From assembly GCA_964016885.1 (NCBI GenBank), contig OZ024745.1, positions 78,554,001-78,618,000 on the forward strand: a DNA stretch of 64,000 nt, given 5' to 3'. The DNA is from Eledone cirrhosa (taxonomy: Eukaryota). A program made the position numbers and the translations under genes. Below, piece after piece: positions 9,955-59,514 of this stretch (position 1 is its first letter; every line of letters begins with the position of its first letter). The notes below the pieces were generated by a model. That model saw only the letters and a program-made list of their open reading frames with translations. It made no database searches and was not told the origin of the DNA.

Positions 9955-10195
9955 GGTGGCTCTCTCAGACATGCCCTCTGTAGTACATACAACAACATCC
10001 CTCACTAGCTTTGCTGATGACACTAAGGTAGCACAGGCAATCAAAAACCTGGCTGACGCTGCCCTTTTACAACAAGATCTGGATGCCATATACAAATGGG
10101 CGGAAGAAAACAACATGCAGTTTAATGCTGTCAAACTCCAAGTCCTACAATACAAACCTGCAAACACAAATACAGTACAACACAGTTACGCAGGA
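9955..10195 (+). mobile_element. CR1/L2-like LINE reverse transcriptase fragment
   Basis: SFADDTKV...[20 protein letters not shown]. Confidence 0.85.
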
Positions 10196-10450
10196 CGTAC
10201 AGTAGTATGTATATATATATATACATGCACACATATATATATGTACGTATGGTTTACAAACAAACCGAACATTATAACAAATGTTCGGTAAACCTATACG
10301 TACATATATATATATGTGTGCATGTATGTATATATATATACATACTACTGTACGTCTGTATACATATATGTATGCACGTATACATACTTACATTTAAGTA
10401 TCAGCCGTACTAAGAGTGAGAAATGAAATTTCATTAAATTCTTTTCCATT
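10195..10450. repeat. Fold-back element ending in the shared tail cagccgtactaagagtgagaaatgaaattt
   Basis: Arms gacgtacagtagtatg...tgtacgtat / atacgtaca...catactactgtacgtc; related to 26905-27400. Confidence 0.75.
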
Positions 10451-10617
10451 TATATATATATATATATTGTTATACTTGGGGAGGGTCATGTTGCCAATAA
10501 GAAACACACGCACCAGTTGCTTTCACTTCAATTTATTATAGTAAATTTATAAATTTAGGAATTTATAAATTTCCGGTTGGTTGGTTGGTTCCACAACCAG
10601 ATGGTTGTTTATATATT

Positions 10618-10660
10618 GTCAAAGTTCTTTCGTCACACATTCTGTGACCTCTTCAGTGAC
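10618..10660 (-). ncRNA. Minimal type I hammerhead ribozyme motif
   Basis: Minus strand: GTCA-CTGAAGA-G-GTCACA(gaatg)TGTGAC-GAAA-GAAC-TT-TGAC. Confidence 0.7.
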
Positions 10661-10808
10661 TGGGGATTCTTTTCTTTGTTTTTGTGCCTCTCCTCGGATG
10701 TGGCGCATGCGCAGACTGAGCACACAACACACACACAAAAACAAGATGGCGTAGGACAGAACAAAGGAGAGGCACAAAAACAAAAAAAAACAAAGAAAAG
10801 AATCCCCA

Positions 10809-10851
10809 GTCACTGAAGAGGTAACAGAATGTGTGACGAAAGAACTTTGAC
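10809..10851 (+). ncRNA. Minimal type I hammerhead ribozyme motif
   Basis: GTCA-CTGAAGA-G-GTaACA...TGTGAC-GAAA-GAAC-TT-TGAC, with one stem II mismatch. Confidence 0.65.
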
Positions 10852-11169
10852 AATACTAACAGCCGTACTAAGAGTGAGAAATGAAATTTCGTTTCATTTT
10901 TTCCGTTTATATATGTATATATATATGTATATATATATATGTGTGTGTGTGTGTGTGTGTGTGTGTGTGTGTGTGTGTGTGTGTGTGTGTGTGTGTGTGT
11001 GTGTGTGTATATATGTGTGTGTATATATATATGCGTGTGTGTGTGTGTCATAATATATAAGTGTGTATGTGTGTGTATATATATGTGTGTGTGTGTGTAT
11101 ATATATATATATGTGTGTATATATATATATATATATATATATATACGTGTGTATATATATTGCTATCAT

Positions 11170-55437: not shown

Positions 55438-56200
55438 ACATGAGAAGAAAGAGGAATACTGCGTGGTTGCACATGGCTTACATATTATAAAATTAGTCCC
55501 TCGTCAGTGATTTGCCAACCATCATTGGTATTTCATCGCATTAAAAATCATATACCTCAGGTTGGTGCGAACAATAACTAAAAAGAGCTATTGGGACAAG
55601 TGAATTGCGTAAAGCGAGTGAGACAAGTAAACAACATAGAAGGATAAAAGCAAACCGAAGATAGAAAAAAAACAAGCAATATGGTTATCCGGTCAGCATA
55701 AACTGGGTGGATTTCATGAGCAATCAAAATACAGACCGTCCGACGTGAGTGAGATGTGAGCAAGAAAGGACCCAACTATTAACCAAACGGGAGGAAGTGA
55801 GAAGGGGAGAAACAGAGAGTGAGTGAGTGGAAGTGCGAGGAAGAGATCAGTCGAGAGAAAGTGTAATTAACAGAGGGGGCGAAAGAAGGTGAGAGAAACG
55901 GAGAGAACGGGGGAGCAGTAAGAGAGAAAGAGAGAAACAGACAAACGCACCCGAGGTAAATATGTATAAAAAACATGAGAAGAAAGAGGAATACTGCGTG
56001 GATGCACATGGGTTACATATTATAAAATTAGTCCCTCGTCAGTGATTTGCCAACCATCATTGGTATTTCATCGTATTAAAAATCATATACCTCAGGTTGG
56101 TGCGAACAATAACTAAAAAAAGCTATTGGGACAAGTGAATCGCGTAAAGCGAGTGAGACAAGTAAACAGCATAGAAGGATGAAAGCAACGAGAAATGAAA
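55438..56200. mobile_element. Non-coding element with ~215-bp direct repeats (about 1.4 monomers of ~535 bp)
   Basis: 55438-55653 is repeated at 55973-56188; flanked by (TA)n. Confidence 0.85.
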
Positions 56201-57098
56201 TATATATATACATACATATATATGTATGTATATATATGTATGTATATATATATATATATGTATATATGAATGTATATATATGTAAGTATATATATGTATA
56301 TATGTATGTATATATATGTAAGTATATATATGTATATATGTATATATATATATATATGTATGTATATATATATATATGTATATATATATATGTATGTATA
56401 TATATATATGTATGTATATATATATATGTATGTATATATATATATGTATGTATATATGTATATATATATGTATATATATATATATATATATATATATATA
56501 TATATATATATATATGTATGTATATATAATATATGTATGTATAATAATTGTCACAAGTGTAGTGTTTGTAACAGAGTTTTCAAGCCGCTGGCTGGACTAA
56601 AAAGTCACACTCGTTCAGCGCATCGGTAGCGGTTCTCCTACATGGATATAAAGTAGTGGCCGTACTCGAAAACGAGTTGGCAGCCACCACCATATATATA
56701 TATATATATATATATATATATATATATGTGTGTGTATATATATATATATATATATATATATATATATATATATATATATATATATGTGTGTATGTATATA
56801 TATATATATATATATATATATATATATATATATATATATATATATAATAAAGTATATATATCCCTACACGCCCAAAGCGCTTAGAGAAACATGTATTGTC
56901 CAACCATATGCCAATGTGGTTCAATGGCAAGTTAATAAATTAACGAGCCAGAACATATATAATCAAGGTTTAAACCTTGATTATATATATATATATATAT
57001 ATATATATATATATATATATATATATATATATATATATATATATATAATATATATATATATATATACACACGGCTGTGTATGATTGTGTAAGGAAGAT

Positions 57099-57503
57099 TA
57101 TATTAATAAAATGAATTCCAACTTTGTCTGATTTACTCTTTTTATTTACAATCCGTTAAAATTATAATGATATTATAATGAAATAGTATGGTAGAATATT
57201 AAATGTTAAGTGTTAATTGAACAAGTACTTTCATGCTTTCGCAATCTTCAGCTTCATATTCTGTGGTGACAGTCAAGTTTGCAATTTTCAACAAGTTTGC
57301 AATTTTCACAGTTCAAAATTGCAAACTTGACTGTCACCACAGAATATGAAGCTGAAGATTGCGAAAGCATGAAAGTACTTGTTCAATTAACACTTAACAT
57401 TTAATATTCTACCATACTATTTCATTATAATATCATTATAATTTTAAAGGATTGAAAATAAAACAGGTAAATCAGACAAAGTTGGAATTCCTTTTATTAA
57501 TAT
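57099..57503. repeat. ~400-bp fold-back with a minimal hammerhead-like motif in each arm (second copy 59074-59478)
   Basis: ~190-bp inverted arms; TGAAG-CTGAAGA-tTGC-GAAA-GCAt-GAAA-GTAC-TT-GTTCA at 57347-57385. Confidence 0.88.
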
Positions 57504-57609
57504 ATATATATATATATATATATATATATATATATATATATATATATATATATATATAAAGAATGAATAATAACAGGTAGACATCATAAAAAGGTAATTT
57601 ATTCCGTGT

Positions 57610-57719
57610 GCTTACAAATGTTTCCACGGTGGTACTACAGCCTAGTTATGCTATGTGCAAATTTACAACTATTTGCAGAACTCAAATATCCAATGCTGTG
57701 ACCACTGTATCCTCAGAGC
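57610..57719 (-). ncRNA. Hammerhead motif in the inverted Penelope pseudo-LTR (second copy 59571-59680)
   Basis: Minus strand GCT-CTGAGGA-tACAGTGGT...ACCACCGTg-GAAA-CATTTG-TA-AGC; GUA site, long stem II insert. Confidence 0.6.
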
Positions 57720-59514
57720 AGAATGGTAAAATGTACAATGTAAATACCCTTAAGTGGGGTTGTTGGAGAAGATAGAGTAGAAAAGGAAGAGAGAAAAGTA
57801 GGGGAGAGGGAGAGAGAGAGAAAGATATGCAGGGGTTGGAGAAGTAGGAGAGAGTGGTTTGTAGATATCTTAATCAAAATGTTATGGTAGGGGTTTTATT
57901 ATACTGGTTACTTTTGGAGAGATGCATTGATAGTTAATGCATAGATATGAAGAGGGAGGTCGGCCAAAGGCGAGAGAGTGAGAGTGTGTAATGGATGCCT
58001 CGATTAGTACAAAACTATCTCTTTCATTCTTTAAGTTAATCAACAAACATTTCCCTAGTTCCCATAAATACAGCAAAATTCTGAACTCTAAAACTATTAG
58101 ACTATCATACTCCAAGACACCAAACCTTGAAGCATACATAAAAAAACTTAACTTAAGGCAATTAAACAACTCTACAAAACAAAACATTTTAGTAACAGAT
58201 GGGCAGAACGTAATATCTGCCTCCCAACCACTAAATGGGAGACGGGTATTACACAATCCACCTGCACTGCTATCACAACCTATCCATGGTATACCCGCTA
58301 CCCACAACAAAGAATGTAACTGCCATCTACCTGAAAGATGTTCATTGAAGAATGAATGCCTCAAGTCCAACATTGTTTACCAATGCACGGTTGAATCGAA
58401 CGACCAGAAATGGTATTATATCAGATCTACCACCACCTCGTTTAAATCTCGCTGGTACCGTCATCGATTCTCAATCAAACATCCTAATCACCGTTTTGTG
58501 ACCACGCTCGCCAACAAGACCTGGCAACTCCGTGTAGTGTTTGTAACAGAGTTTTCAAGCCGCTGGCTGGACTAAAAAGTCACACTCGTTCAGCGCATCG
58601 GTAGCGGTTCTCCTACATGGATATAAAGTAGTGGCCGTACTCGAAAACGAGTTGGCAGCCACCACCATATATATATATATATATATATATATATATATAT
58701 ATATGTGTGTGTATATATATATATATATATATATATATATATATATATATATATATGTGTGTATGTATATATATATATATATATATATATATATATATAT
58801 ATATATATATATATATATATATAATAAAGTATATATATCCCTACACGCCCAAAGCGCTTAGAGAAACATGTATTGTCCAACCATATGCCAATGTGGTTCA
58901 ATGGCAAGTTAATAAATTAACGAGCCAGAACATATATAATCAAGGTTTAAACCTTGATTATATATATATATATATATATATATATATATATATATATATA
59001 TATATATATATATATATATAATATATATATATATATATATACACACGGCTGTGTATGATTGTGTAAGGAAGATTATATTAATAAAATGAATTCCAACTTT
59101 GTCTGATTTACTCTTTTTATTTACAATCCGTTAAAATTATAATGATATTATAATGAAATAGTATGGTAGAATATTAAATGTTAAGTGTTAATTGAACAAG
59201 TACTTTCATGCTTTCGCAATCTTCAGCTTCATATTCTGTGGTGACAGTCAAGTTTGCAATTTTCAACAAGTTTGCAATTTTCACAGTTCAAAATTGCAAA
59301 CTTGACTGTCACCACAGAATATGAAGCTGAAGATTGCGAAAGCATGAAAGTACTTGTTCAATTAACACTTAACATTTAATATTCTACCATACTATTTCAT
59401 TATAATATCATTATAATTTTAACGGATTGTAAATAAAAAGAGTAAATCAGACAAAGTTGGAATTCCTTTTATTAATATATATATATATATATATATATAT
59501 ATATATATATATAT

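What the first reader, a model, noticed from the sequence alone, without database searches (positions are those of the whole stretch)
10195..59478. Modular system of (TA)n-embedded fold-back elements carrying hammerhead ribozymes
Seen: at least ten inverted duplications, mostly beside or within (TA)n tracts (3907-3969, 10195-10390, 10615-10855, 26905-27340, 27824-27955, 31860-31927, 34335-34987, 34674-34795, 57099-57503, 59074-59478). They reuse two terminal modules: a head tgttatayttggggagggtcat (10465, 22075, 27824, 29740, degenerate at 34272) and a tail cagccgtactaagartgagaaatgaaattt (10402, 10860, 27350). Several contain CTGANGA...GAAA hammerhead motifs. Known: Penelope-like elements carry minimal hammerheads in pseudo-LTRs and often show inverted 5' pseudo-LTRs. 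Inference: these may be non-autonomous, microsatellite-targeting Penelope/retrozyme-like families whose integration regularly leaves a palindrome, with a ribozyme on each strand in some copies.
Basis: partly seen in the sequence, partly recalled or inferred. Interest (0 to 1): 0.75.

Follow-up and report, generated by a model that had tools for sequence, protein, structure and literature searches.

The report
Penelope head-to-head ends in TA repeats
The mirror-image repeats in this window are back-to-back end pieces of about eight separate Penelope-type jumping-gene families (one a small ribozyme repeat) inserted in TA microsatellites, a known pattern, and their ends suggest that each was likely made by copying one RNA from both sides of a DNA cut, often up to the predicted start of that RNA.

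Summary
The palindromes are real (91-100% arm identity, none in shuffles), but they are not one modular system. They are head-to-head 3' ends of about eight repeat families. Four lie downstream of Penelope-like reverse transcriptase/endonuclease genes elsewhere in the genome. One is a non-coding 420-433-bp hammerhead tandem repeat (retrozyme). The 'head' is the terminus of two related families; the 'tail' is the retrozyme's optional 3' extension. Only 3 of 10 listed palindromes hold canonical hammerhead cores; two items are one duplicated insertion, and one is three neighbours.

Inverted pseudo-LTRs, a one-sided tail, TA targeting and opposite-strand hammerheads are published. Measured here: inverted pairs nearly always carry exactly one tail (47/51, 31/31). 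In family C, 53 of 100 copies start within 12 nt of a predicted transcription start, with a smaller cluster at the ribozyme cut, and paired arms share haplotypes. Best model (inferred): both target strands prime cDNA at the two start sites of one RNA, and the cDNAs join at the RNA's 5' end. This scan noted similar patterns on other DNA of this genome.

The parts
3907..4063 (.). Family D (Hydra-type PLE) head-to-head 3' ends; tail on right arm; no hammerhead core inside
10195..10450 (.).
10464..10694 (-). Family A (Neptune/Nematis-type PLE) pLTR arm, positions -38..+189 of the hammerhead, no tail; starts with the 'head module'; core at 10656
10695..10855 (+). Family A pLTR arm -108..+42, core at 10813 (stem II mismatch)
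10857..10904 (+). Family B tail joined to the family A arm (A/B chimera; still one tail per insertion)
   Evidence: junction not bridged by a listed contig
22074..22319 (-). Solo pLTR end related to family A'
26905..27400 (.). Family B retrozyme palindrome (unit positions 16-229 minus, 51-305 plus), tail on right; holds only the 3' half of the hammerhead
27769..27955 (.). Family A' head-to-head 3' ends; tail on left arm
29738..29985 (-). Solo family A' pLTR end with the 3' part of a hammerhead
31785..31936 (.). Family E palindrome centred in the 3' half of its hammerhead; tail on left arm
34270..34320 (-). Degenerate family A terminus ('head')
34337..34477 (.). Family F insertion 1; right arm begins at or within 2 nt of the predicted GUC cut; tail on left arm
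34620..34797 (.). Family G palindrome; both hammerhead cores mutated; tail on left arm
34816..34985 (.). Family F insertion 2; tail on right arm
41525..41699 (+). Solo family D pLTR (-69..+107) with a predicted type I hammerhead at 41594
57064..57504 (.). Family C palindrome centred at the predicted transcription start (-44/-41); cores at 57251(-) and 57352(+), both with a broken stem I closing pair; tail on left arm
59039..59479 (.). Duplicate of the family C palindrome (tandem duplication)
59943..60701 (+). Hydra-type PLE endonuclease fragment (partial duplicate at 57982-58575); neighbour, not part of the palindromes

Best explanation
The palindromes are head-to-head 3' ends of several Penelope-like retrotransposon families and one retrozyme inserted in (TA)n, and each likely arises when the element's enzyme cuts both strands of the TA tract and primes two cDNAs, one from each of the two start sites on the RNA that bound the 'tail'. 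Shown: family identity, 3' ends pointing outward into (TA)n, two fixed 3' ends per family, one tail per pair, and clustered 5' ends in families C, F and D. Inferred: both cDNAs run toward the RNA 5' end and are joined there through 1-4 nt of microhomology. Because priming is internal, the enzyme can use the start sites only ~200 nt behind the pLTR promoter; this gives short copies that stop at the transcription start (a 'strong-stop'-like product) and hence palindromes with a fixed centre. A minority of templates are predicted to be hammerhead-cut RNA. Family B, with scattered 5' ends and more-than-unit arrays, is likely copied from a circular RNA by the same kind of enzyme. Both arms usually come from one haplotype (one RNA or one source locus), sometimes from two RNAs.
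For: RT + GIY-YIG frames upstream of A and C; Hydra-type frames upstream of D and F. Neighbour orientation among the first 100 listed matches: C 22 divergent and 0 convergent pairs, A 26 and 2. (TA)4 within 18 nt of 39 of 45 tail-less C ends against 7.8% background. One tail per pair: C 47 of 51, none with two, p 9e-11; A 31 of 31, B 12 of 14, E 5 of 5; F 35 of 37 rows, G 13 of 14, D 4 of 5 (read by hand). C 5' ends: 53 of 100 at -45..-34, 18 at -45/-44, 0 at -53..-46, with a TATA-like box 31 nt upstream of -44. F: 56 of 100 arms within 6 nt of one site, TATA-like box at -31; D: 7 of 19. The arm holding the complete 5' end has the tail in 16 pairs and lacks it, while the other arm has it, in 11; one folded-back cDNA cannot supply a tail that its template lacks. 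Arms differ at 10.2% of diagnostic columns against 41.9% across loci. An 8.4-kb palindrome of two full-length copies (3,998 of 4,000 identical) is centred at the predicted hammerhead cut. The purified PLE protein cuts and extends both strands from two internal start sites and is predicted to be a dimer (PMC11167929).
Against: No RNA data: the transcription start and hammerhead cleavage are predictions. In family A only 4 of 30 5' ends fall near the predicted start and none at the cut. Four two-tail pairs were seen, one each in B, D, F and G (a second B case, L040, is a filter miss). Arm-to-arm conversion or polishing occurred in the window's own duplicated copy, so shared variants can arise after insertion. 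PMC11167929 found no difference in start site between strands, found hammerhead cleavage dispensable, and found no RNA ends at the cut. The cluster at the cut is modest (9 of 29 ends in 14 nt, p 0.001) and AT-rich microhomology could bias it. Samples come mostly from the first 66 Mb of one contig and from exact-match, hence younger, copies.
Confidence: 0.65

Rival explanations
1. One cDNA folds back on itself at the RNA 5' end (self-priming) and copies itself; the endonuclease then trims one end at the inner site, leaving one tail.
For: Junctions read as fold-backs with 1-3 nt pairing and a small loop; arms mostly share a haplotype and 19 rare variants against 0.7 in shuffles; self-priming was proposed in PMC3846280, there on an antisense template.
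Against: In 11 of 27 informative pairs the arm with the complete 5' end lacks the tail while the other has it, which needs trimming of the already attached end. Some pairs have arms of different haplotypes, many family A pairs have non-overlapping arms, and the A/B chimera needs two RNAs.
Confidence: 0.22
2. One reading: non-autonomous fold-back elements built from shared head and tail modules are copied as whole palindromes from master copies.
For: Family C junctions recur letter for letter in many loci; a master with flanking TA would also never give two tails.
Against: The same junction occurs on many haplotypes with concordant arms; family A pairs each have a different centre yet keep the one-tail rule; the modules are family-specific; longer copies run into coding Penelope sequence.
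Confidence: 0.06
3. The palindromes are DNA-transposon MITEs, scars of (TA)n cruciform repair, or fold-back read artefacts.
For: (TA)n tracts here also flank palindromes of simple sequence (32230-32353, 32828-32967).
Against: Arms differ by 3.4% private changes, close to unrelated copies at 3.9%; centre-spanning joints stand in short-read contigs; the arms are retroelement 3' ends facing outward with variable centres, and no transposase is linked.
Confidence: 0.04

Closest known systems
Canonical C-terminal EN+ Penelope-like elements, Neptune/Nematis type (PMC8557442; PMC3846280)
   Same: Families A and C: RT with DKG-like motif, CX4CxxC linker, cysteines inside GIY-YIG, ~4.0-4.2-kb partial tandems, inverted 5'-truncated copy, one-sided tail, minimal hammerhead in the pLTR; an upstream ORF1 in C.
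   Different: Tails are ~40-60 nt against 30-40 nt. The pile-up of 5' ends behind a TATA-like box and the strict one-tail count are not reported in the passages read. Clade was assigned from motifs, not from a tree.
Hydra clade PLEs (PMC8557442, section 11)
   Same: Family D: DKT, CxCX5C linker, no cysteines between GIY and YIG, flanking CxxC and CxH, (TA)n insertion, hammerhead. Family F: partial frames with the same C-terminal motifs.
   Different: Family F has a U3-A8 variant hammerhead with the predicted promoter inside loop II; F's link rests on one locus with broken frames.
Metazoan non-LTR retrozymes (PMC7229834; bioRxiv 10.64898/2026.07.22.740005)
   Same: Family B: 420-433-bp non-coding tandem unit, one type I hammerhead per unit with a palindromic loop III, thousands of copies.
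   Different: B shows Penelope-type ends (two fixed 3' ends ~59 nt apart, inverted pairs, TA target), which those papers do not describe in the passages read; a circular RNA was not shown here.
Poseidon PAc of Anolis, internal initiation (PMC11167929)
   Same: Two adjacent start sites bound the tail; AT-rich target; both strands cut and extended.
   Different: That study does not link the two sites to head-to-head pairs or to 5'-end pile-ups, and found no sign that cut RNA is used.

Membership tests
EN+ Penelope-like elements (families A, C) | PLE RT followed by a C-terminal GIY-YIG endonuclease | tested here: met
   C: Pfam RVT_1 E 2.9e-6 and GIY-YIG E 3.3e-6. A: RVT_1 E 1e-3 to 3e-4 only; its EN aligns to C's by BLASTP
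EN+ Penelope-like elements (families A, C) | pLTR from partial tandems, optional tail, inverted 5'-truncated copy | tested here: met
   Units of 4,041 and 4,202-4,208 bp; two fixed 3' ends; divergent pairs
EN+ Penelope-like elements (families A, C) | Minimal type I hammerhead in the pLTR | tested here: met
   Core plus stems I and II in 62 of 116 A and 106 of 155 C motif matches as the commonest form; cleavage not tested
Neptune/Nematis clades | CX2-5CxxC linker and cysteines between GIY and YIG | tested here: met
   Read in the translations
Neptune/Nematis clades | Placement in the RT phylogeny | not tested
Hydra clade (family D) | DKT, CxCX5C linker, no CCHH, flanking CxxC and CxH | tested here: met
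   L392 frames against section 11 of PMC8557442
Hydra clade (family F) | Same motifs upstream of the pLTR | tested here: inconclusive
   One locus with two partial frames 760 nt upstream; DKT and linker not seen
EN+ PLE (families A', E, G) | Linked RT-EN reading frame | not tested
   No long copy fetched; hammerhead, tail and TA ends only
Non-LTR retrozyme (family B) | Non-coding tandem unit of 150-450 bp with a type I hammerhead per unit | tested here: met
   420-433-bp spacing, arrays up to at least 7 units, compensatory stem I change in 8 of 86 motifs
Non-LTR retrozyme (family B) | Self-cleavage and circular RNA | not testable with these tools
   Only indirect: 5' ends scattered round the unit
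DNA-transposon MITE | Fixed terminal inverted repeats shared with a transposase element | tested here: not met
   Arms are variable retroelement 3' ends; upstream sequence is RT-EN
Naiad/Chlamys | N-terminal endonuclease and no canonical hammerhead | tested here: not met
   The endonuclease is C-terminal and hammerheads are present

The most novel reading that the evidence does not exclude
Penelope-like elements integrate by a symmetric two-primer reaction: a dimer loads both start sites of one RNA onto the two strands of a cut TA tract. Internal priming next to the promoter yields abundant strong-stop-like palindromes that map the transcription start, ribozyme-cut RNA serves as template in vivo, and retrozyme circles use the same enzymes, even within one insertion (the A/B chimera).
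Probability: 0.5. Interest if true: 0.7.

Novelty: new member of a known kind. Interest (0 to 1): 0.45.

Why it matters
How Penelope-like elements make their tandem and inverted structures, and what their hammerheads do, are named as open questions in PMC8557442 and PMC11167929. Thousands of copies here give countable rules (one tail per pair, a 5' wall at a predicted promoter, a smaller wall at the ribozyme cut, scattered 5' ends for the retrozyme) that separate two-primer from fold-back models and can be tested in the existing in vitro system. For annotation, such hairpins should not be filed as MITEs or microRNA precursors.

Tried and rejected
Rfam scan: miRNA-type hits on hairpins, all below gathering score among the 150 rows shown; no help. 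ViennaRNA folding of single hammerheads gave no significant z-score in 8 of 8, as expected for minimal motifs, so it is no support. The look-up of sequencing runs: no RNA holder listed. The A/B chimera junction was not bridged by any listed contig; those contigs are short in repeats, so this is inconclusive. The first C search was biased toward the palindrome centre; 5'-end statistics use the 100 3'-anchor matches instead. An apparent B hot spot at unit position 389 was a reference indel and vanished. A 5' wall could not be tested for G because its reference reached only -6; four TA-artefact rows were dropped there. I first judged F to lack a hammerhead and withdrew that. No A-to-G excess suggesting editing was evident among rare C variants. 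One row of the alignment (L065) had wrong coordinates and was ignored. A shared tail motif between A and B was considered and not pursued.
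Full report
OBSERVATION. Self-comparison of the microsatellite-masked window finds the listed inversions. Arms align over 28-193 nt at 91-100% identity, and 14 local inverted hits compare with 0 in each of 10 block shuffles. The head motif occurs six times and the tail motif three times where stated. 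The count of ten needs correction: 57099-57503 and 59074-59478 are one insertion inside a ~1,964-bp tandem duplication, and 34335-34987 is three neighbouring insertions. Canonical hammerhead cores lie in 3 of 10 intervals, on both strands in each.

FAMILIES. The window lies in a 3.0-Gb animal genome. Family A (10464-10855): flanks of genomic copies run upstream into a reading frame with RT and GIY-YIG motifs; the unit is 4,041 bp; exact motif counts are 5,284 for the hammerhead and 23,958 for a 3' anchor. The 'head' is its 3' terminus read backwards, shared with the related family A'. Family B (10195-10450, 26905-27400) is a non-coding tandem unit of 420-433 bp with one hammerhead (9,371 exact matches); the 'tail module' is its optional 3' extension. 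Family C (57064-57504) is the pLTR of a 4.2-kb element with a 476-aa ORF and an overlapping 775-aa RT-endonuclease frame (5,429 and 7,245 exact matches). Family D (3907-4063) and probably F (34337-34477, 34816-34985) lie downstream of Hydra-type frames. E and G carry type I hammerheads, with covarying stem I in G; no coding partner was fetched for A', E or G. F has a U3-A8 core variant with the predicted promoter inside loop II, a lead taken from note e1-10321781. At 10857 the B tail is joined to an A arm, the only such case among 87 B tails examined.

RULES OF THE INSERTIONS. Neighbouring copies face outward: among the first 100 listed matches, C has 22 divergent and 0 convergent pairs within 5 kb, A has 26 and 2. 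(TA)4 follows 39 of 45 tail-less C ends within 18 nt, against 7.8% at locus edges and 13.3% in the window. Each family has two fixed 3' ends. Inverted pairs carry exactly one tail in 47 of 51 C pairs (53 found; one internal junction and one duplicate dropped; 4 with none, 0 with two), 31 of 31 A, 12 of 14 B and 5 of 5 E. In one search, read by hand, the figures are 35 of 37 F rows (two rows are duplicates; one pair has two tails, one none), 13 of 14 G rows (4 artefact rows dropped) and 4 of 5 D rows.

For 100 C copies picked by a 3' anchor in genome order, 5' ends fall as follows relative to the hammerhead core: 18 long, 0 at -53..-46, 53 at -45..-34, 8 at -33..+23, 9 at +24..+37 and 12 further down. 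A TATA-like box begins 31 nt before -44; the TATA, initiator, NRF1 and YY1 labels used in this work are recalled, not from a call. F shows the same pile-up (56 of 100 arms within 6 nt) and D a weaker one (7 of 19). A does not show it clearly (4 of 30), and B's 5' ends scatter round the unit, with arrays up to at least 7 units.

The predicted C hammerhead cut is at +29. An 8.4-kb palindrome of two full-length copies with near-identical open frames (L174, 3,998 of 4,000 identical) is centred there with a 3-nt pairing. A genome-wide pattern for TA joined to +23..+35 gave 59 overlapping matches, 26 loci by my hand reading: 2 begin before the cut, 22 at or after it and 2 are unassignable; without two likely local duplicates this is 2 against 20, p 2e-4. 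Sequence bias toward AT-rich microhomology is not excluded.

TEMPLATES. In 53 C pairs, arms differ at 10.2% of 17 polymorphic columns against 41.9% across loci, but at 3.4% against 3.9% of the other columns. They share 19 rare variants (shuffle mean 0.7, maximum 3) and differ in 197. So arms mostly start from one haplotype and then age independently, which excludes read fold-back artefacts for these copies; centre-spanning joints also stand in short-read contigs, possibly of the same sample. A few pairs differ in whole blocks. One caveat comes from the window: in the duplicate at 59039-59479 the right arm carries left-arm alleles over ~20 nt, so conversion or polishing can create shared variants. 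The arm holding the complete 5' end has the tail in 16 pairs, lacks it while the other arm has it in 11, and 3 pairs have none. A single folded cDNA cannot give the 11 without trimming its attached end.

MECHANISM. Shown: identity, orientation, target, end positions. Inferred: a double cut in (TA)n primes two cDNAs at the two start sites, both run to the RNA 5' end (cap site, sometimes the ribozyme cut, often a random stall) and join by microhomology; solo copies keep one cDNA. Short fixed-centre palindromes follow from internal priming ~200 nt behind the promoter. B is likely copied from a circle. I put 0.65 on this and 0.22 on fold-back with trimming; the assignment to Penelope-type ends alone is near certain.

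WHAT IS KNOWN. PMC8557442 (passages and section 11): inverted 5'-truncated copies, a tail often at one end, (TA)n bias, Hydra motifs. PMC3846280 (passages and Discussion): palindromes at inverted junctions, a TATA/Inr pair in the pLTR, self-priming on an antisense template proposed. PMC4209133 (parts 1-2 of 4): minimal hammerheads, pairs 100-700 bp apart on opposite strands, the U3-A8 variant. PMC11167929 (parts 1-2 of 4): two internal start sites, both strands extended, cleavage dispensable. PMC2377424 (passages): promoter in the pLTR. PMC7229834 (passages) and bioRxiv 10.64898/2026.07.22.740005 (part 1 of 5 and passages): retrozymes, with PLE mobilisation proposed. PMC13282606 (passages): PLEs are abundant in an octopus genome, with no hammerhead or palindrome mention in the main text. 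Arkhipova 2006, Pyatkov 2004 and Lunse 2017 were not read. Supplements were not opened and may bear on tails and start sites. Eight searches showed no paper stating the two-primer rule or the 5' pile-up; the library lacks most subscription journals. Earlier notes of this scan report the same patterns on other DNA of this genome; they are not independent support.

VERDICT. Real, but new members of known kinds rather than a new modular system. The value lies in the countable end rules, which make an open mechanistic question testable. Interest 0.45.

Noticed in passing
window 56557-58534 / 58532-60495: Tandem duplication of ~1,964 bp, mostly 100% identical, with breakpoints in an RTE 3' end; the second copy's palindrome shows arm-to-arm homogenisation over ~20 nt (conversion or polishing).
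   Followed up: partly
L174 (G000:C1:21872066-21880686): 8.4-kb near-perfect palindrome of two full-length family C elements with open 476-aa and 775-aa frames, centred at the predicted hammerhead cut.
   Followed up: yes
L079, L283, L140 (family F): U3-A8 variant hammerhead whose loop II holds a TATA-like box and the 5'-end pile-up, so promoter-started RNA would carry only half the ribozyme.
   Followed up: partly
window 26163-26830, 30623-31096, 55443-56188: Another TA-flanked repeat family with CTGANGA motifs but no nearby GAAA and internal ~129-bp repeats.
   Followed up: no
window 32230-32353, 32828-32967, 56952-56983: Palindromes of simple or short unique sequence beside (TA)n, not assigned to any element; possibly TA cruciform repair.
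   Followed up: no
window 24575-25762: GC-rich retroelement fragment with a restriction-like endonuclease look (label recalled), no Pfam hit at E 0.1.
   Followed up: no
window 28570-29750, 62287-63600, 10000-10190, 39753-40776, 1652-3274: Fragments of other mobile elements: RTE-like RTs, a LINE RT end, a PLE RT fragment and a transposase-like region (labels from reading the translations).
   Followed up: no
family A pLTR, e.g. window 10695-10760: NRF1-like and YY1-like motifs (recalled) around a weak cluster of 5' ends at -57..-78.
   Followed up: partly
L391:5400-9900: Tandem ~720-750-bp repeat array unrelated to the families studied.
   Followed up: no
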